A program made the position numbers and the translations under genes. From positions 10,205,179 to 10,269,178 of the forward strand of contig CP075493.1 of the NCBI GenBank assembly GCA_021613535.1: a stretch of 64,000 bases of DNA, read 5' to 3'. Positions within the stretch are counted from its first letter, which is position 1; every line of letters begins with the position of its first letter. Source of the stretch: Adineta vaga. Its lineage: Eukaryota > Animalia > Rotifera. Below are positions 8,179-18,830 of the stretch, in pieces. The notes below the pieces were generated by a model that saw only the letters and a program-made list of their open reading frames with translations, had not been told where the DNA came from and did not search any database.

Positions 8179-8957
8179 ATCACTTAACTTCTTCTTATTC
8201 TTCTTTCTATTAGTAAGTTCAAATCTAAAATGTGTCTTATCTCATATTTTATCTCTAGTTCTTTATATATATATATACAAACACGCTCAATAGCGTTTCT
8301 TTTTTAACTATAGATCTCTTTCACACATACAATAATAATTCATCGTATGAAAGACACACGACACACACACACATACATGTATAAAGAAGTTACACACATA
8401 TTAAAGGCTTCAATCATCTCGAGAAAGAGAGATAGAGAAAGAGAAGAAAAAAAGAGTAACAACAAAGAATACAACGACTTTGGATGTCAAAATAGATATA
8501 ACATTTATATGTATTTACAAAAAAAAACGTAAACAGAAAGAATATTGAGAATATATATTTGTTTGTTTCGTATTTCTCTTCAATTATTCGTTTCGCATAG
8601 CAAAGATAAACTGTTCAATAGAAGAGAAGAAGAGAAAACAATACGAAGAAATCTTCGAAATAAATTTCATTTTCTATGACTTGTCATCAACATTATCATC
8701 ATCATCATCGAAAATTCTTATCAGATCGTCAAATAAACATGGATGTTTTTTTTCTTCATATTTTTTTCTACAGAAACAAAAGACAAAAACAACCACCGGT
8801 TCACAAAATAAGAAGAAGAAGAAGAAGAAGAAGACAGAGAAGACAAGCTTATTGCATAAACATAAAGCCATGTTCAATGACATCTCAATGAGATTTCATA
8901 GAAAAACAAACAAATAATATTTATAAGAAAAGTATGTATAAAGTATATTTATATATG

Positions 8958-11900
8958 CTATCGTTCTTTCGTCCGTTTTATTGTCGAAGATTTTGACATT
9001 GAACAGATATCTTGTAATGTATTTCCATGATCAAGCAAATTAACAAGTATAGTAGATATTTGAGTTAGGTGTTCACAAAAACAACGATGCCGTTGACTAT
9101 TAGCCTACAAAAGGAAAAGAAATCAATTCATATAATATTTGTATTGTATCTTTTGTTTCTAAAAACTAAACACTATGTTTGAAAAACAACTATCATCTTC
9201 ATTTTAAAATCTGAATAAACAAGATTTTCATTTATCTTACTTCGATAAGATCTTCGACAGTCCTTCGTATTGATTGATCTTCAATATCTAATAATTGTGT
9301 TATATCAGACAATTGATTTTGTGTCATTTGTTCGTCTTGTGTCTAAAATGAACAAAAACACATTTATTACTATTTCTAAAAATCGCCTTTTTTTCTCCTT
9401 ACCAGATCGGATAGATATGTTGTTAATTGATCAATACGCCAGGTTGCCCACGGTTCAGTTAGTCGTTTTCGTATCGTCTCAATACTTTTGACCGGTACAG
9501 TTCTTTTTGGATCTAGGGAAAAATAAAATTTGAAGATCAAACAAAACAACATATTCAATGAAATTGTTTACTCGTTCGAATAATATCTGAATATTTTTCA
9601 TAATGATTGATTTTTGGTTTCCACGAAAAACGTGATACAAGTGTACTCATGGATTGCGGTCGAGTTTTTCCTCCAATCCAACGAATGCCAGTTCGTTTAT
9701 CATCATAAACAAAATCTACAGAAAAGAAAAACAAATTCAATGAATTTATTTCGAATGTAATTCTTCTTACCCTGTGATAATCGTCGAAGAAGTTCATCAT
9801 CGATTTGATTGATAAGTATATCTGTAGATGTTGTTTCTTGTTTAATATTTTCATTCGATACTAATTCAGGAGTTACTTTCGTAATTGCTCTTCGTTTTCG
9901 AGATAATAGAGCAGCATTGGCTGTTTCTGCTGAATTACGCTTTTTGGATATACCACTCGTATCAATACCGATGGATGATACTGGTGTCGTATTTTCAATA
10001 GAAAATTTTGATAATGGACGATTACGAGAATTGGAAAGCTTCTTTAAATTCGATGATGAATCAAACTGTTCATAATGAATTAGTTTCGACGGTGGCTCAC
10101 TAGATGATAGTGGATCACTGAGAGAAAAGAAGACAAGGAAAGATATAAAATGAAATAGAAGAAAATGATTTTAAAATTTACTCATCGATTAGTTTGTGCT
10201 TTTTCGGTTGTCGAATAGTTGTTGCTGTTGCTGATGATAGTGATGATGATGATGATGCTGGTAGAACAGTTGTTGATATTGGTGTTATTTGTTGAGTGGA
10301 TGGTTGTAAAGGAAGGCGTGTTCGATTTTTCGTTGACATTTTATTATGATGAACTAAAAATAGTAAGGTTTATTCAAAAAAGAAACGAACGAAAAGATTT
10401 AATTCATTTCTTACGATTTTTAATAATTGTTGAATCGTTAAGTTTTTCATCCGTTTGCATTTCACGAATAATTGGTGTTGTTATTGTAGTTGTTGTTGAT
10501 TGATGATTATTATTATGATCCATTGAACGTTGTGTAGTTGATATAAGTACAGATGGTGTTGAGGAAGAAGAGGTTGATGATGAATATAAATGGGTTGCTG
10601 GAAGTGTAAATTGAACTGGTTGTTGGGGAGAATTGATTGACTCGGAATTTGTTGATGAGGGTAACAATTGCATATGAAAATAAGTTTGATGACCAGAAGA
10701 ATCAAGATTTTTTGTCGTATATGAATGCGGATGTTGAACTTGAACATTCAAGGATGCTAGAGGATTTTCAGTTGTTGTCGGAGATGACAAACCAAAATGC
10801 ATACTTATTGGAAAAGAATCCGTTTTTTCACTTTTTACAGTTTGAACATGAGTGATATGTGGATGATGATGATGATGATGATGTTCAGAAGATGATATTG
10901 AAGTAGGAATCAATTGTACTGGTCGAGAAAGTACTTTAGCTAAATAAAAGAAATTATTCGTTTATTTAATTGAAGTTTTATTTGAATCATTTATTACAAA
11001 ATAAAACATTCTTTAAAGTAAGATTCACTTTTCTTCTTATCTACCCACAGTTTACTTTGTTGTTAAGTTGGATTTTTCTTTATACAAAGACCTGATAATA
11101 ACCACAACACACTAAAAGATCTAACAAATACAAACATTTCGTTCTAAACTGATCTTACAAATCGTTCTCGAACAGTAAGTTGTTCTTTAGAAGACTCCTA
11201 GCTACTAAATCGAAACGATCATTTTCATACATTCTTCCAGTAAAGATACGACGATTGGTGAATACAATGTTCAAGAAAAAGTCTGATTTTCATTACTTAA
11301 AATATTTTCAAAGACAATACCTGTTGGTAACATAGATGATGGTGGAATTGAAACTACAAAAGAAAAAGAAGAAATATGTAAGTTACTTTCCAGATCTATC
11401 TTTCTTTCAAACTTACAAATCTTCGTGGCTTGTGTTTGTTGTTGTGGTTGCCAAAAATTATTATTTGTATTTGATGCATTTGTATTTTGTTGAATGACTA
11501 ATTTTGGTGTAATATTATTTGTAACATTCGTTGATGATGATGATGCAGATACTGACGATGAATTCGAATTTGTAATCAATGGTTGTACAAGTGTAACACG
11601 ATTTTTCGATAGAAAAACGGATTGATTTGTATTGCTTGAACAGGATTTATCTGTTCCCATTGTTGACATATCATTTGTAGATGAGATTGTCACACTATTT
11701 AATGTCTGAATTTTTGGTGATGTTGTTCCAGGTGGAATTAATGTTACTAATGATGACGATGATGTTGAATTTGAAGGAATTTGTTGTTTATTTACTGTTG
11801 TTGTACTGCTCTGTTGTGGATTTAATATATATGTTTTAGCTGTTGAAAAACCTCCATTCATGGATGATTTATCCGTCAATTGGAACTGTAAATTTGTTGG

Positions 11901-13986: not shown

Positions 13987-16900
13987 ATGGCTATTCCACT
14001 TGATCAACAATTCAAACTAGAAAAAAAAGGAATTACAGAAAACCGTATTCCTGTTTTGGTAATTTTCAATAGAAAATCTATTATTTATTAATATATCAGT
14101 ACTATGATTGATTGTAGGATGAATCTGGGATGGAACAACGTTGTTTCGTCACATATACTCCACTACCAACAGATATACACGACGGAGGAGCTGTTGAACA
14201 ATGGATTGAACGAATGACATTCATCTGTGAAGATTTAACATGGTTATTACAACAAAGTCATACAAAATTTTGGTGTGAAGTATGTGATTTTCTTGGAAAT
14301 AATCTCTTTTTAAAAATTAGAATTTCATTTAGGTTGTTTTTAATAAAGATTTTCATTCCATGTTTGATTCTTATTTACGTTATTCACCACGGTAAATCTC
14401 TTCTTTTTTTATCATTTAGTTTATTTAATTGTTAACATATTATCGAATAGACCACAACGAACTGTGATAGCTGATAATTATTCTTTTGTTCCAAATGGTA
14501 AACAATTAGAAGAGAACGTTTCACATCTCATGTTTCTATGTATTCTTCGACTTTCAACTCATAAAGAATCTACTGTATGTTTCATACATTCTTTCGTTCT
14601 ATTTTGAATTTCTACAACAAATCAAATAGGAATATTTCTTCACACCACAAGGATTTGGTAATATTATATATGAGAAGTATATTTTTGATATTCCTCGAAT
14701 ATTTGATATATGTTCATTATATGCAATCAATAATAAAGATTTGTTAAGTAAAATGATTGGAAATATTTTTAAACAACAAGATGCATATCATAATGATCTT
14801 AAGAATGCAATTAAAGCAATCACAGAAGTAAGTTTCATAGACTACTGATCTATTCATCAGCTATTTTATGAATTTAGGTAGTCAACACTCGAATTCAAGC
14901 ATTCAATACACAAACTGGTCCGAAAAAACTTACTGCCACGACAACGAAATCGTCCGGTTCAGAAGAAATCATTGACTTTCTCCATTATATTCTTGATCTA
15001 AGTTGTACAATCAATCGTTTATTCTCTGTTTATCCACCAACTCGAATGATACTTTTCCATGAAAACTTTCATATAACGCAAGTACGCTGAATACACTAGG
15101 CAACAAACTAAAGAAATGTGTTTTTGCTTATTTTATTAGATTGATCGAACTGTTTGAAACATTCTTACGTATTTATGAACGTACTCAAAAAGCAAATAAT
15201 CTCGAAGATAATGAGTAAGTTTAAATAAACGATTGCCAATTAAAATACTTCTCATATGAATTATTTAGAGAATTGTTCGAAGAAACAAAATATGAATCTA
15301 TTGTTTTATTCAATGATCTTCTTGCGTCATGTTGTATTGATCCATTACTTGTGAATGAGTAAGATTATTTCTTGAAAATATCGAAACTGTTATTTCATAT
15401 ACATTCATTTTTATAGAAATAAATCTGATAATGTCGAATCATTGATCGATATATTTTCATTATTAATTACAAAAAAACGATTTCTTGCTGCATATGAAGA
15501 TTATTTCGATCTTCGTGAAATGATTGATCTTGTTCATCAAACAACTAATCTTTTGTAAATAGTACAATACTGATGAAAATATCGATAAGAAAATGTATAT
15601 ATTATCTGTAGAGATGATCAACAAATTACGTTTTATACCGATGGTGTAAAACAAGCTATTGAACTTCATGGAACTCCATCATGCAAACAAAAATTATCTT
15701 CTGTATGTAGTTCAAACGAAGTTTTATGTTATCTATTTTCTCTATTTAGTCAGCAACTGGTATTTCTTCCGTTAAAAAATCAACTAATCCAAATGTTCAA
15801 ATGATTCAAGATATGTTTCCACACTTAGATGAAAAATATATTCAAGTAAGTTGGAGAGAATGAAAAGGTAATCTAGAGAATTATTTTAAAAGTTTTAAAC
15901 CCATTTTATCATTGAAATCCAATGTTTTTAATGTGTTTACGAATGTTTCGAGTGATACTTTGGAATTTGGTTGATCATCTATAAATTCTGCAATAACTTT
16001 TTCTGCTATAATTGAGGCTTCATCATCACTGATTTTGCCAACCTAAATGATAAAAATAGACAGATATAAATGTACATATTGATTCATGATTGTTTCTTTA
16101 TTGATTTACCATCATTTTAAGTGTTTCTTGTACGTCTTCCTTTGACAAACGTCCATCACGATCAATATCGTACATCTAACAGAACAATACAAAAACATAT
16201 AAGAATGTTAAATAGAAAGAATGTTAGTTTTGATCATACACGAAACATAAATTTAACTTTACGAGTTTTTGGTGTATCATCAGGAGAGTATCGGACGTTT
16301 TCTAAAGTAGATTTGGTTGCAAGTTGAGAAGTACTATTCACTGTAGTTGCTTGCAGGGATGATCGACGTTTTGAATGAGAATGATGATGACCATGATGTT
16401 CGTGTCCGCCACGAACACATTGACCGAATGTACTCATAAAGTAAACAAATTGTGGGAATGTTAATTTTCCATCTGAACCGAAATCATCCAAAATAACTTT
16501 GATCAATCGAGGTGCAATTGGATTTTCATCAAATTTTGGTACACGACCAAGATCATCTCCATCTATATAACCTTTATATCCTTTTGTATCACCGCGACCA
16601 TCACGATCAAGTTCAAAAAATCGTGTCCATAATGAAGAAATTTGTTTTTTTGAAAGGCCTAATTCATTTCTCAAGAGATTTTCTTATTGGAAAAATGTTT
16701 CTTTATTACCTGTATTATTAGTTATCTCCTCAACATTAACCGATTCCGGTAATGATGGTGTTGCACCCATCGCTATTTTGCTTCCGTTCTCTTCTGTGTT
16801 GGTTTGTCTTAGAATCGATTCTATTTATTGTTTAACGGAGAACGTGTTCTAAATGTTAAACATACGGTTAAAATAGAAAAGAATAGAAAATATTGTGTTT

Positions 16901-18715
16901 TTCTCTTATTCTCGAACATATCACATGTACGTGTAGTCATGCATTAAAATCATTATTATCATCGCTACCTATTCAAGTATGATATAAATGTGCGAGTGTA
17001 TGCTAGAGAAAAAAAGCTTGTAAGAGAAAGAAAAGTAGCCTTTTTTTTTGTATGAAATAAATATAACTGCAAGTAGAAAAAGAAGAGAAGAAGGAATAAA
17101 AATGAGAAGATAAAATATAGTTTTTGTCTTATGATTATAAATTAAATGAAGAAAATGCTCTTTTGTATATTGAAAAGATCAGACAAATAGCTAAAAGTCA
17201 CGTTCGTTGATAGAACGAGCAAGTTTATTACTTGCCTCATTTTTCTGATAAGATCGACTTGAAGATACTCGATGCCAAACGTATGAACGAGGAGAAGTAG
17301 AATTTATTAAATGTCGCAATCAAACGTAAGAGATAGAATAGAACAATATGACGAGTAGCGCATAATAATTGATTGAATGTCTGCTGTGTCTGTTATTGCT
17401 TCTGTATTCTCTCTCTTTCTCTCTTTTTCGGTGTGCGCGCTGAACTTTTACACATCGAATCAGAGAAAAGAATGTGATAATAAAGGAAGAAAAACAAGAA
17501 TTTATTCATTGTTACTTGATCTAATCACAGTAGGCTGTTGCCTGCAAACTTATAAAAGAAAAGAAAAGACACATAAGATGACTGTCATTAATGATGTATT
17601 AACTCATGTTGAATCCATAGAAAGAAAAGCATAAGTCACTGAAATAATAATAATCTATTCTCTTTAGACTTGTCTTAATCATTACGATAATAATACTGAA
17701 CGTCTTGTTAATGCTCTATTTGATAATACTGTTCCTGAAAATCTCAAATCTGAGACGATAAATACTGTAACAACGTCGGCATCAGGATTTTCATCTTATG
17801 ATACAACCGATACTGAGAATTTATTTACGAGTAAAGATCTATATCTTGTGGAACAACGTTCAAATATATATGATAATGATGAATTTGATTTCTTCAATCG
17901 TGAAAATATTGATAGATCCAGAATACATCGAGGAAAGAAGTACGTAGATATTATTTGCACGACTAATATTGATGATTTTTTGTTCTCTTAGAACACAAGA
18001 TTCATTAGCAATTCTTGATGATAAATCTCATTTGGAAGGAATGAATGAACGTTATGCTCGTCTAGGTCTCGTTCAAGATTATACAGATGAAGAATATGAT
18101 GATGAATACGATGACACATATGATGATGGTATTGTCAATGTGAGAGATAAAGATGATACGGTTGATAATGAATTAGCAAAAAATGAAAACAGGTTTGATA
18201 TTTATTACTATTAATCTTTCTCTTTTTTTATGAATCATAAAAAATTCTCAATAGATCAACTGGCATAAAACCAAGACGTTTTCGTCAACAATCGGATGAT
18301 GAAGAAGAAGAAGAAGCAGATAATGAAAATAAAGTAATTTCCTTTTAGCATGGATCTTTTTTTTTATTATTATTTCTGTCATAAATCAATCTCTCGTTCT
18401 TTCGTTAAGGATAAACGCCGCCAACAATTCGTAGAAAATCCTGAAGTTGTTCGAGAACGATGGGCACAACAACGAGCAGCTTGGCAACAACGTCATCAAC
18501 CACATCGATCGCACGCTCAACAACAACAACAACAGCAGCAGCAGCAGCAGCAGCAGCAACAGCAACATGATGTCGTTGGTAGTGCTCGTGGTCGTGGTCA
18601 AACAACAACAGTTCAGCATAATCGACGTTGGAAAGATTCACATAAATCATCACAAGGAAATCATAATCGTCGAGATCGAGCAGCACAAAAAGCAAATCGC
18701 GGCTTACTTTCTTAG
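13987..18715 (+). CDS. ASCC2: Activating signal cointegrator 1 complex subunit 2 (CUE-domain protein), multi-exon.
   Basis: Exon 1 MAIPLDQQFKLEKKGITENRIPVL at 13987. FVTYTPLPTDIHDGGAVEQWIERMTFICEDLTWLLQQSHTKFWCEV at 14130-14285 matches ASCC2 FVLYKPPP...ERATFVANDLDWLL...DKFWCQV. PQRTVIADNYSFVPNGKQLEENVSHLMFLCILRLSTHKEST matches ...FLTFLRMSTHKES. The CUE domain is split between exon ...MIQDMFPHLDEKYIQ (ends 15843) and exon TCLNHYDNNTERLVNALFDN... (from 17659). NDEFDFFNRENIDRSRIHRGKK matches NDEFDVFSRDSVDLSRVHKGK. YDDEYDDTYDDG at about 18090-18130 matches the human YEDEYDDTYDGN motif. C-terminal HNRRWKD...NHNRRDRAAQKANRG matches ...ANHNRRTMADRKRSKG. Confidence 0.85.
15861..16775 (-). CDS. CHP1: Calcineurin B homologous protein / tescalcin-like EF-hand Ca-binding protein, four exons, with an N-myristoylation-type MG start. 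Lies entirely inside an ASCC2 intron on the opposite strand.
   Basis: Exon 1 MGATPSLPESVNVEEITNNT at 16716-16775. Exon 2 is in ORF 16234-16674: LSKKQISSLWTRFFELDRDGRGD...FGSDGKLTFPQFV...KVKFMFR. Exon 3 MYDIDRDGRLSKEDVQETLKMM at about 16115-16181. Exon 4 VGKISDDEASIIAEKVIAEL...LKLLK* at about 15861-16045. EF-hand loops DRDGRG and DIDRDGRLSKED are readable. Unusual His-rich insert GGHEHHGHHHSHS. Confidence 0.8.
18518..18570 (+). repeat. Coding (CAA/CAG)n tract: poly-Q run of about 18 residues in the ASCC2 C-terminal exon.
   Basis: caacaacaacaacagcagcagcagcagcagcagcaacagcaa within ORF 18350-18715 (HAQQQQQQQQQQQQQQQQQQHD). Confidence 0.9.
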
Positions 18716-18830
18716 AAAATAAACAACACGAAAAATTTTATTTTTTTATCTTGAATAAACTTCAGTTGTTTTATAATTCTAGAAAGAAAATCTTCTATTG
18801 AGTTGTTTTGTTTTACGATATTTCAGATGG

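What the first reader, a model, noticed from the sequence alone, without database searches (positions are those of the whole stretch)
15844..17658. EF-hand CHP gene nested antisense inside the intron that splits the ASCC2 CUE domain
The ASCC2 coding exon ending ...MIQDMFPHLDEKYIQ (15843) and the next exon TCLNHYDNNTERLVNALF... (17659) together form one CUE domain. The roughly 1.8 kb intron between them is by far the largest in the gene; the others are about 50-70 bp. It contains a complete four-exon calcineurin-B-homologous-protein gene on the opposite strand (15861-16775, MGATPSLPE... to ...LKLLK*). Such a nested gene in an otherwise extremely compact, short-intron genome is unusual. It implies either coordinated or interfering transcription of a DNA-repair/ribosome-quality-control factor and a Ca-sensor.
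Basis: seen in the sequence. Interest (0 to 1): 0.6.

Follow-up and report, generated by a model that had tools for sequence, protein, structure and literature searches.

The report
Calcium-sensor gene nested inside ASCC2 intron
In the rotifer Adineta vaga, a small calcium-sensor gene (CHP) sits backwards inside the one long intron of the ASCC2 gene, an old arrangement shared by bdelloid rotifers and an ordinary example of a nested gene, though gene annotators have wrongly cut the host gene in two.

Summary
The window is Adineta vaga. ASCC2 (+ strand, 15 exons, 13987-18715, 720 aa) has 13 introns of 47-76 bp and one of 1822 bp (15846-17667, GTAAGT..TTTAG, phase 0). That long intron splits the CUE domain 20+20 residues. 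It holds a complete 4-exon CHP gene on the minus strand (CDS 16770-15881, 235 aa), identical to NCBI UJR16378.1.

The same nesting occurs in A. ricciae, A. steineri, two Rotaria species and about 10 environmental bdelloid contigs. Intron length in the five named species is 1.8-2.0 kb. An environmental contig (L010) joins exon 11 directly to exon 12. A 97%-identical genomic contig (L014) shows that lineage also carries CHP in the intron, so the host intron is spliced out.

The intron position is old: a mollusc and another distant eukaryote have it, short or CHP-free. A decayed exon-12 relic beside the duplicated CHP copy suggests the nesting predates the bdelloid genome duplication.

New details:
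- The CHP stop lies only 8-48 nt from the ASCC2 exon-11 donor, so the CHP 3' UTR must run antisense into that exon.
- All public bdelloid annotations I retrieved split ASCC2 into two genes.

Nested genes are common in animals, so this is a new member of a known kind, of low to moderate interest.

The parts
13987..18715 (+). ASCC2 host gene, coding region of 15 exons, 720 aa. Exons: 13987-14058, 14118-14279, 14333-14391, 14451-14574, 14630-14827, 14878-15077, 15140-15214, 15269-15358, 15417-15554, 15612-15702, 15750-15845, 17668-17939, 17992-18192, 18255-18333, 18410-18715.
   Evidence: Manual splice model with an open frame. Human ASCC2 (PDB 6yxq_B) matches residues 2-390 at E=1.2e-61. Pfam CUE at E=1.7e-10. 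The exon blocks coincide with blastn blocks of the spliced contig L010.
15750..15845 (+). ASCC2 exon 11. It encodes the first half of the CUE domain (...NVQMIQDMFPHLDEKYIQ) and ends at residue 435.
   Evidence: CUE profile positions 2-20 only. A GTAAGT donor directly follows in nearly all bdelloid loci examined; two environmental contigs have GTAAGA.
15846..17667 (+). ASCC2 intron 11: 1822 bp, GTAAGT...CTTTAG, phase 0. It is the only long intron of the gene and contains the whole CHP coding region.
   Evidence: Orthologous introns are 1831, 2003, 1854 and 1838 bp. It is removed in contig L010. The same intron position occurs in the distant L028 (about 57 nt) and in Elysia marginata L034.
17668..17939 (+). 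ASCC2 exon 12. It encodes the second half of the CUE domain (TCLNHYDNNTERLVNALFDNTVPE...) and the conserved NIYDNDEFD...RIHRGKK stretch.
15881..16770 (-). CHP (calcineurin-B-homologous-protein-like EF-hand) gene, coding region of 235 aa. Exons: 16770-16710, 16658-16240, 16175-16110, 16042-15881 (stop TAA at 15883-15881). Introns: 51, 64 and 67 bp.
   Evidence: 100% identical to A. vaga UJR16378.1. PDB CHP1 at E=1.2e-19. Pfam EF-hand_7 and EF-hand_1. Relatives that lack intron 1 or intron 2 have exactly the predicted fused sequence. NG86 dN/dS is about 0.15-0.26 against three species.
15846..15880 (.). 35-nt spacer between the CHP stop codon and the last base of ASCC2 exon 11. It contains the host 5' splice site and no AATAAA on the CHP strand. 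The CHP 3' UTR and poly(A) site are inferred to extend into exon 11 as antisense.
   Evidence: The spacer is 35-48 nt in the named species and only 18, 11 and 8 nt in L027, L030 and L029.
16771..17667 (.). The 897-bp stretch between the CHP start codon and ASCC2 exon 12. Inferred to hold the CHP 5' UTR and promoter plus the host branch-point and acceptor region. Conserved non-coding blocks lie at about 16802-16861, 16926-17002 (contains TATAAAT), 17520-17535 and 17575-17608.
   Evidence: Five-species MAFFT alignment. No Rfam family, tRNA or notable repeat. Part of it is also retained beside the duplicated CHP copy in A. steineri.

Best explanation
This is a conventional host/nested gene pair in the bdelloid rotifer Adineta vaga. 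ASCC2 is transcribed on the + strand as one unit. Its 1.8-kb intron 11 is spliced out, joining exons 11 and 12 in phase 0 to make one intact CUE (ubiquitin-binding) domain.

Inside that intron, on the opposite strand, sits an independent four-exon gene for a CHP-type myristoylated EF-hand protein. It has its own promoter in the 0.9 kb next to host exon 12. Its stop codon lies only 35 nt from the host's exon-11 donor site.

The intron is long because it houses a gene, not because of repeats or transposons. The intron position is ancient, being shared with a mollusc and another distant eukaryote where no CHP is present (about 57 nt in the latter). So CHP came to lie in a pre-existing intron.

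This happened before Adineta and Rotaria split, and probably before the bdelloid genome duplication. After the duplication, one copy kept host plus guest. The other kept only CHP, with a decaying relic of host exon 12 beside it.

Shown: the gene structures, the identities, the conservation, and the splicing of the host junction in a close relative. Inferred: separate promoters, the overlap of the CHP 3' UTR with host exon 11, and any transcriptional interference.
For: CHP is identical to the annotated UJR16378.1.

The nesting is conserved, with GTAAGT/YAG splice sites, phase 0 and intron lengths of 1822-2003 bp, in five named species. It also appears in environmental contigs L015, L017, L018, L021-24, L027, L029 and L030.

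The spliced junction is seen in L010, paired with genomic contig L014. The blastn blocks break at L010 positions 1486/1487, within a few bases, in every comparison that reaches the junction.

The CUE domain is complete only when the exons are joined. Both halves and CHP are under purifying selection.

The annotated 'C-half genes' begin with unrelated invented first exons (MNVIN, MAIDRRLAVL, MLYDGFRVII and others) and then all continue with TCLNHY....

Outgroups share the intron position without CHP.

The duplicated block in A. steineri is collinear: polyprenyl synthase, CHP, gene X. It keeps an 88-bit, 376-nt match (controls reach at most 31 bits) that runs from the conserved intronic blocks across a dead acceptor into a decayed exon 12.

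Nested genes are a common arrangement in animals (PMC3814207, PMC5174743, PMC13309782).
Against: There is no transcript evidence from A. vaga itself.

L010 comes from an unidentified relative with 77% amino-acid identity. It retains introns 10 and 12. I could not establish whether its JGI sample (3300052649) is a metatranscriptome, so it could be a retrocopy rather than an mRNA. Either way the junction was made by splicing.

Every public bdelloid annotation I retrieved models ASCC2 as two genes. No A. vaga ASCC2 protein, whole or partial, appeared in the protein collection.

An ATG followed by GTATTAA, conserved among the three Adineta species 90 nt before exon 12, could in principle start a C-terminal isoform.

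The ends of the CHP transcript were not observed.

The dating to before the duplication rests on one decayed relic. No relic of exon 11 was found.
Confidence: 0.88

Rival explanations
1. Gene fission. The arrival of CHP split ASCC2 into two independently expressed genes, as public annotations model it. One would be an N-terminal ASCC3-binding half ending by read-through of the donor (...KYIQVSWRE*). The other would be a C-terminal half starting from a promoter inside the former intron, possibly shared bidirectionally with CHP.
For: All retrieved annotations in A. ricciae, A. steineri and the Rotaria species give an N-half of 408-473 aa and a C-half of 273-288 aa. Conserved non-coding blocks, including a TATAAAT on the + strand (16985) and an Adineta-conserved ATG mini-exon (17578-17595) with a GT donor, lie upstream of exon 12.
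Against: L010 shows exons 11 and 12 joined. The donor GTAAGT, the acceptor and phase 0 are conserved in nearly every lineage; two environmental contigs have GTAAGA. Each half-CUE would be non-functional alone, yet both halves stay conserved. The proposed C-half start peptides are unrelated between species, and the ATG is absent in Rotaria. Gene predictors trained on 50-bp introns would be expected to break a gene at a 1.8-kb intron that holds another gene. A minor C-terminal isoform alongside the full-length mRNA is not excluded.
Confidence: 0.07
2. The nested CHP copy is a silent or decaying duplicate, a pseudogene or non-expressed retrocopy that merely sits in the intron.
For: A second CHP paralogue exists elsewhere in each bdelloid genome (P0013, P0014, P0011), so redundancy is possible. 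No CHP transcript was recovered here.
Against: The 235-codon frame is intact, with three consensus introns, so it is not a retrocopy. It shows 66-90% amino-acid identity across more than 10 lineages, and dN/dS is about 0.15-0.26. Precise intron losses in relatives preserve the frame. Upstream non-coding blocks are conserved. In the duplicated region it is CHP that survived and the host that decayed.
Confidence: 0.03
3. Assembly artefact: CHP was mis-joined into ASCC2 in the A. vaga assembly.
For: None found.
Against: The identical arrangement is seen in independent assemblies of four other species, in several isolates, and in about 10 metagenomic contigs.
Confidence: 0.01

Closest known systems
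Opposite-strand host/nested (intronic) protein-coding gene pairs of animals, for example those catalogued in Drosophila melanogaster (Lee & Chang 2013, PMC3814207; Assis 2016, PMC5174743), C. elegans opposite-nested pairs (PMC12274878) and mammalian host/nested pairs (PMC11694760, PMC13309782)
   Same: A complete, independently promoted protein-coding gene lies inside one intron of an unrelated host gene on the opposite strand. That is the commonest nested orientation (my own knowledge). The host intron is much longer than its neighbours. The host is still spliced across it.
   Different: The Drosophila definition (PMC3814207 abstract) states that the coding sequences and UTRs of the pair do not overlap. 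Here the guest's stop codon is 8-48 nt from the host's 5' splice site, so its 3' UTR almost certainly overlaps host exon 11. The guest is not a young duplicate in a long intron, which is the typical origin given in PMC5174743. It is an old, conserved gene in what was a short intron, in a genome whose median intron is about 55-60 bp (PMC5916493).
Human/rodent CHP1 (p22), CHP2 and tescalcin; calcineurin B
   Same: It has an N-terminal MGxxxS myristoylation motif, the four-EF-hand scaffold and C-terminal homology through ...KMxIxxL. It matches PDB CHP1 at 1.2e-19 and CHP2 at 5e-16, ahead of calcineurin B at 1e-15.
   Different: It carries a 40-50-residue His/Ser-rich insert between EF2 and EF3 (GGHEHHGHHHSHSKRRSS...). 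Only EF3 (residues 155-182) is a canonical loop. The EF4 loop has Q, P and T at positions 3, 4 and 12 (alignment), so calcium binding at EF4 is doubtful. No partner, such as a Na+/H+ exchanger, was tested.
Human ASCC2 (ASC-1 complex subunit p100; PDB 6yxq chain B)
   Same: The N-terminal ASCC3-binding domain aligns over residues 2-390 (E=1.2e-61). It also has a central CUE domain, the acidic YDDEYDDTYD motif and a basic C-terminal tail.
   Different: It has a poly-Q run in the tail (window about 18520-18575). One intron (intron 6) is GC-AG. The gene structure hosts CHP.

Membership tests
Host/nested gene pair (a gene wholly within an intron of another gene) | The guest coding sequence lies entirely between two consecutive host exons | tested here: met
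   The CHP coding sequence (15881-16770) lies inside ASCC2 intron 11 (15846-17667).
Host/nested gene pair (a gene wholly within an intron of another gene) | The two flanking host exons are actually spliced together, making one host gene rather than two | tested here: met
   Shown in a close relative, not in A. vaga itself. L010 joins exon 11 to exon 12. Genomic L014 from the same lineage (97% identical) has the intron and CHP. The CUE domain is complete only when the exons are joined.
Host/nested gene pair (a gene wholly within an intron of another gene) | The guest is an independent, functional transcription unit | tested here: inconclusive
   It has an intact ORF, consensus introns, purifying selection and conserved upstream blocks, and it is annotated as UJR16378.1. 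No transcript was observed.
Host/nested gene pair (a gene wholly within an intron of another gene) | No overlap of guest UTRs with host exons (strict Drosophila definition, PMC3814207) | tested here: inconclusive
   Probably not met. The stop-to-exon spacer is 35 nt with no AATAAA in A. vaga, and only 8-18 nt in three environmental lineages. The 3' end was not mapped.
CHP (calcineurin B homologous protein) subfamily of EF-hand proteins | Closest sequence relatives are CHP1/CHP2 rather than calcineurin B or NCS/CIB proteins | tested here: met
   PDB phmmer ranking: CHP1 1.2e-19, CHP2 4.8e-16, calcineurin B 1.3e-15 or weaker, CIB 3e-9. The margin over calcineurin B is modest.
CHP (calcineurin B homologous protein) subfamily of EF-hand proteins | N-terminal myristoylation consensus MGxxxS/T | tested here: met
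   The protein starts MGATPS. Actual modification is not testable here.
CHP (calcineurin B homologous protein) subfamily of EF-hand proteins | Functional Ca2+-binding EF3 and EF4 | tested here: inconclusive
   EF3 is canonical (Pfam EF-hand_1, residues 155-182, 34 bits). The EF4 loop deviates at positions 3, 4 and 12 (alignment).
CHP (calcineurin B homologous protein) subfamily of EF-hand proteins | Binds and regulates Na+/H+ exchangers | not testable with these tools
   Biochemical property.
ASCC2 (activating signal cointegrator 1 complex subunit 2) | N-terminal helical domain homologous to the ASCC3-binding region of human ASCC2 | tested here: met
   6yxq_B, E=1.2e-61, residues 2-390 against 7-408.
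ASCC2 (activating signal cointegrator 1 complex subunit 2) | CUE ubiquitin-binding domain following the N-terminal domain | tested here: met
   PF02845, residues 416-455, 40.7 bits against a cut-off of 21.1. The joined exon 11+12 peptide scores 45.6 bits.

The most novel reading that the evidence does not exclude
The tail of the CHP gene and the 5' splice site of the host's only long intron have been held within 8-48 nt of each other across the bdelloid radiation. This spacing may be functional. The CHP 3' UTR, running antisense over ASCC2 exon 11 and its donor, would couple the two genes. The coupling could act through transcriptional collision, masking of the donor, or RNA-duplex/small-RNA effects. 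Expression of the calcium sensor would then tune production of full-length, CUE-containing ASCC2 against a truncated, CUE-less N-terminal product.
Probability: 0.1. Interest if true: 0.45.

Novelty: new member of a known kind. Interest (0 to 1): 0.27.

Why it matters
There are three modest points.

1. Annotation. In every public bdelloid annotation I retrieved, ASCC2 is cut into an N-half and a C-half at this intron. The CUE domain is destroyed on paper as a result. Orthology, gene-count and 'gene loss' analyses of ribosome-quality-control and alkylation-repair factors in these radiation- and desiccation-tolerant animals would be misled.

2. Genome evolution. This is a datable example of a nest that has persisted in a compact genome (median intron about 55-60 bp) since before Adineta and Rotaria split, and probably since before the bdelloid tetraploidisation. 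After duplication, the guest survived in both copies and the host in only one.

3. Regulation. The forced antisense overlap of the guest's 3' end with the host's exon and donor is a concrete, testable case for transcriptional interference. No such effect is shown here.

Tried and rejected
- A length-maximising exon-chaining script gave a wrong ASCC2 model, with read-through of introns and a spurious exon at 17464-17607. I replaced it with a manual model, later supported by L010.
A. vaga's own annotation around the locus could therefore not be read.
- Rfam (E up to 1), tRNA and repeat scans of the intron found nothing: no snoRNA or other known non-coding RNA, no transposon-like repeats.
- tblastn found no significant ASCC2 remnants in the duplicated regions. 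A relaxed search gave only a borderline hit. Sensitive blastn with controls then recovered the relic on the exon-12 side but nothing on the exon-11 side.
- I looked for a canonical AATAAA for CHP. There is none within about 180 nt downstream of the stop on the minus strand. The AATATA antisense to the Tyr-Ile codons is widespread, but it is confounded by coding constraint.
- No CHP transcript contig was identified. The many '69% coverage' ORFs are genomic ORFs from lineages lacking introns 1 and 2, not cDNAs.
- No A. vaga ASCC2 protein, whole or half, was found by homology or exact look-up.
- The first-half CUE exon of Elysia was not located. Only the acceptor side of the shared intron position is shown for that species. 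L028 shows both sides.


Full report
**What is in the window**

The window is AT-rich (30.5% G+C) and has very short introns. My spliced CHP model is 100% identical over its full length to the NCBI protein 'hypothetical protein I4U23_003281 [Adineta vaga]' (UJR16378.1). The sequence is therefore from the bdelloid rotifer Adineta vaga.

On the + strand I built a 15-exon ASCC2 model covering 13987-18715 and encoding 720 aa. Thirteen introns are 47-76 bp. Intron 11 is 1822 bp (15846-17667), runs GTAAGT...CTTTAG and is phase 0.

A first attempt that simply maximised coding length gave a wrong model and was discarded.

The protein aligns to human ASCC2 (PDB 6yxq_B) over residues 2-390 at E=1.2e-61. 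It carries a Pfam CUE domain at residues 416-455 (E=1.7e-10). Exons 1-11 encode exactly 435 residues, so intron 11 cuts the CUE domain into 20 + 20 residues.

The joined exon 11+12 peptide matches CUE profile positions 2-41 of 42 at 45.6 bits. The exon-11 half alone matches positions 2-20 at 21 bits. The exon-12 half alone gives no CUE hit.

On the minus strand inside that intron lies a four-exon gene:
- Exons: 16770-16710, 16658-16240, 16175-16110 and 16042-15881.
- Introns: 51, 64 and 67 bp, all GT-AG.
- Product: 235 aa.

It starts MGATPS, a myristoylation consensus. It has Pfam EF-hand matches (EF-hand_7 at 1e-10; EF-hand_1 at residues 155-182). It is closest to CHP1/p22 (E=1.2e-19) and CHP2 (4.8e-16), ahead of calcineurin B (1e-15 or weaker).

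Its coordinates are off by 2 to 20 bases: the exon ends at 15845 rather than 15843, the next exon starts at 17668 rather than 17659, and the CHP coding sequence is 15881-16770 rather than 15861-16775.

**Is the host really one gene?**

This is the only serious doubt. Every public bdelloid annotation I could retrieve splits ASCC2 at this point into two models:
- An N-half of 408-473 aa. Two models read straight through the donor (...DEKYIQVS*); most others end earlier through mis-spliced or retained upstream introns.
- A C-half of 273-288 aa.

Four lines of evidence argue that these splits are prediction artefacts.

1. The donor, the pyrimidine-rich acceptor and phase 0 are conserved. The donor is GTAAGT in nearly all loci and GTAAGA in two environmental contigs. 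This holds in A. ricciae, A. steineri, Rotaria sp. Silwood2, R. magnacalcarata, Didymodactylos (donor side only) and the environmental contigs.

2. The annotated C-halves begin with short, mutually unrelated 'first exons' (MNVIN, MNVINH, MAIDRRLAVL, MLYDGFRVII, MLLFDDFRVII, MSIDSIQLTL). All then continue with TCLNHY..., the start of exon 12.

3. Both CUE halves are conserved and evolve under purifying selection.

4. The decisive line is contig L010 (JGI sample 3300052649, Ga0530681_015227, 1799 bp; 77% amino-acid identity to A. vaga ASCC2).
   - It lacks introns 1-9 and 11 and reads ...LNEKYIQ|TCLHHYNNNTERLVNALFDN....
   - Genomic contig L014 (Logan ERR9963770) is 97% identical to L010 from exactly L010 position 1487, the first base of exon 12, onward.
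   - Upstream, L014 has an acceptor (TTTCTTTAG), 667 bp of intron and, on the opposite strand, the first 75 codons of CHP.
   - Against the other genomic loci the L010 alignment blocks likewise stop at 1486 or start at 1487, within a few bases.

In that lineage, then, CHP sits in the intron and the intron is removed.

L010 retains introns 10 and 12. I could not determine whether its sample is a metatranscriptome. It is therefore either a partly processed mRNA or a retrocopy of one. In both cases the exon 11-12 junction was produced by splicing.

No transcript from A. vaga itself was available.

**Conservation and age**

CHP is nested at the same place, on the opposite strand, in four other named species. 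The table gives the host intron length in each.

| Species | Locus | Host intron length (bp) |
|---|---|---|
| A. vaga | window | 1822 |
| A. ricciae | L011 | 1831 |
| A. steineri | L001, L002 | 2003 |
| Rotaria sp. Silwood2 | L003-L005 | 1854 |
| R. magnacalcarata | L012, L013 | 1838 |

The CHP start codon lies 861-923 nt from the host acceptor in all five.

A scan of metagenome contigs with an alignment of the exon 11+12 peptides (A1) recovered ten further environmental bdelloid contigs with the same layout: L015, L017, L018, L021-24, L027, L029 and L030.

In Didymodactylos (L006) CHP and the ASCC2 N-half have the same convergent order but lie 4 kb apart. The contig ends before exon 12.

The intron position itself is older than the nest:
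- A distant homologue on L028 (50% G+C, about 33% identity) has ...GEGFIE|VCLREF... interrupted by a phase-0 intron of about 57 nt.
- The mollusc Elysia marginata (L034) has an acceptor at the homologous residue (...CAG|RALQELGYDQ).
- Neither locus contains CHP.

So CHP came to lie in a pre-existing short intron.

Bdelloids carry a second, diverged CHP paralogue with 66-69% identity. In A. steineri its region (L007) is collinear with the primary region. Polyprenyl synthase lies on one side and a 697/795-aa gene on the other, but SRP72 and ASCC2 are missing.

Sensitive blastn between the two CHP-upstream regions gives a collinear 376-nt, 88-bit match (E=4e-21). Reversed and unrelated controls reach at most 31 bits. 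The match runs through the conserved intronic blocks, across a dead acceptor (AG changed to AA) and into a frame-broken copy of exon 12 (TCLSH..NNNN.E.L.ALF). A second match lies further into exon 12 (E=1e-5).

I read this as a decayed host gene around a retained guest. The nesting would then predate the duplication that produced the two copies. No relic was found on the exon-11 side, so this dating is suggestive rather than proven.

**Evidence that CHP is a live gene**

- The frame is intact in every lineage.
- Identity to the A. vaga protein is 66-90%.
- NG86 dN/dS against three species is about 0.15-0.26.
- Introns have been lost precisely in relatives. Intron 1 is absent in A. steineri, L014, L017, L018, L021-24, L029 and L030. 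Intron 2 is absent in Rotaria. The fused sequences equal the junctions I predicted for A. vaga.
- The 0.9 kb between the CHP ATG and host exon 12 contains non-coding blocks conserved between Adineta and Rotaria (window about 16802-16861, 16926-17002, 17520-17535 and 17575-17608). These probably represent the CHP 5' UTR and promoter plus host branch-point and acceptor elements.
- Rfam, tRNA and repeat scans of the intron found nothing else.

The CHP stop codon (15883-15881) is only 35 nt from the last base of ASCC2 exon 11. There is no AATAAA on the CHP strand in that spacer or in the next 150 nt or so.

The spacer is 35-48 nt in the other named species. It is only 18, 11 and 8 nt in L027, L030 and L029.

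A 3' UTR with a poly(A) signal and cleavage site cannot fit in 8-18 nt. At least in those lineages, and very probably in A. vaga, the CHP mRNA must end inside host exon 11 or beyond it, antisense to the host's 5' splice site.

The pair is thus not 'cleanly' nested in the sense used for Drosophila, where UTRs do not overlap (PMC3814207). This makes some sense-antisense interaction physically unavoidable when both genes are transcribed in the same cell. Whether it has any regulatory consequence is untested.

**Comparison with what is known**

Nested protein-coding genes in introns are commonplace in animals (all):
- Nearly 10% of D. melanogaster genes are in nested structures (PMC3814207).
[quoted passage not shown] - Opposite-strand nests have been dissected in C. 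elegans (PMC12274878).

Transcriptional interference is the standard hypothesis for such pairs.

In bdelloids most introns are 30-100 bp, with a median of 55-61 bp in three of the four species analysed. Nowell et al. 2018 nevertheless describe 'a substantial minority' class of much longer introns (PMC5916493). A 1.8-kb intron is therefore uncommon there but not exceptional.

I found no paper describing this particular pair or nested genes in bdelloids.

**Verdict**

It is a new, well-conserved member of a well-known kind of gene arrangement. Its value is mainly practical and evolutionary:
- It corrects a systematic mis-annotation of ASCC2.
- It dates a long-lived nest in a compact genome.
- It flags a forced 3'-end/donor-site antisense overlap that could be tested for interference.

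Interest is low to moderate, at 0.27.

Noticed in passing
window 15078-15139 (ASCC2 intron 6): This intron is GC-AG (..CATATAAC|GCAAGT...TATTAG|A). The GCAAGT donor is shared by Rotaria (L003, L012) and environmental contig L029, while A. ricciae (L011) has GTAAGT at the same site. The spliced contig L010 confirms the junction (HLT|LI). Some public models (P0065, P0086) mis-handle it.
   Followed up: yes
L007 about 8950-9350 (A. steineri duplicated region), compared with L001 about 9080-9430: Next to the second CHP paralogue lies a decayed relic of the ASCC2 intron-11 3' part and exon 12, with a dead acceptor and stop codons. SRP72 and the rest of ASCC2 are gone. The flanking polyprenyl synthase and a 697/795-aa gene are collinear between the two regions.
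   Followed up: partly
window 17575-17608: A conserved element lies about 90 nt upstream of exon 12 (AAGATGACTGTCATTAATGAT|GTATTAACTCAT). In the three Adineta species it reads as an ATG followed by a 5-6-codon mini-ORF and a GT donor. Gene predictors use it as the first exon of a 'C-half gene'. The ATG is absent in Rotaria. It could be a splicing or regulatory element, or an alternative first exon.
   Followed up: partly
window 16926-17002: This is the most strongly conserved non-coding block between Adineta and Rotaria in the intron (TGTACGTGTAGTCATGCATTAAAA..TTATTATCATCGCTACCTATTCAAGTATGATATAAATGTGCGAGTGTATG). It includes a TATAAAT on the + strand, 155-230 bp upstream of the CHP ATG. It is presumably the CHP promoter or a bidirectional promoter.
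   Followed up: no
window 16330-16420, minus strand (CHP residues about 100-150): A His/Ser-rich insert (GGHEHHGHHHSHSKRRSSLQATTVNSTSQ...) sits between EF2 and EF3, in the region where CHP1 has its shorter linker. The EF4 loop deviates from the canonical pattern at positions 3, 4 and 12, so probably only EF3 binds calcium.
   Followed up: no
window 18716-18828 and 18829 onward: The next gene downstream on the + strand is SRP72 (MANEKQEKIDEQLRPLYAELQKY...). Only about 110 bp separate the ASCC2 stop from its ATG. Two AATAAA signals lie in that gap. SRP72-ASCC2 adjacency is conserved in all the bdelloid loci fetched.
   Followed up: partly
window about 18520-18575: A CAA/CAG run encodes 18 glutamines in the ASCC2 tail. 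It is present but shorter in A. steineri and absent in A. ricciae and Rotaria (P0072-P0078).
   Followed up: no
L010 1334-1379 and 1746-1793: The spliced ASCC2 contig retains introns 10 and 12 while lacking the 1.8-kb intron and nine others. Intron 12 in that lineage is 48 nt, in frame and stop-free, and could be a retained or exonised intron.
   Followed up: no
protein collection: No A. vaga ASCC2 protein, whole or half, turned up by homology search or exact look-up, although the nested CHP (UJR16378.1) is present. The host gene may be missing or differently modelled in the A. vaga annotation.
   Followed up: partly
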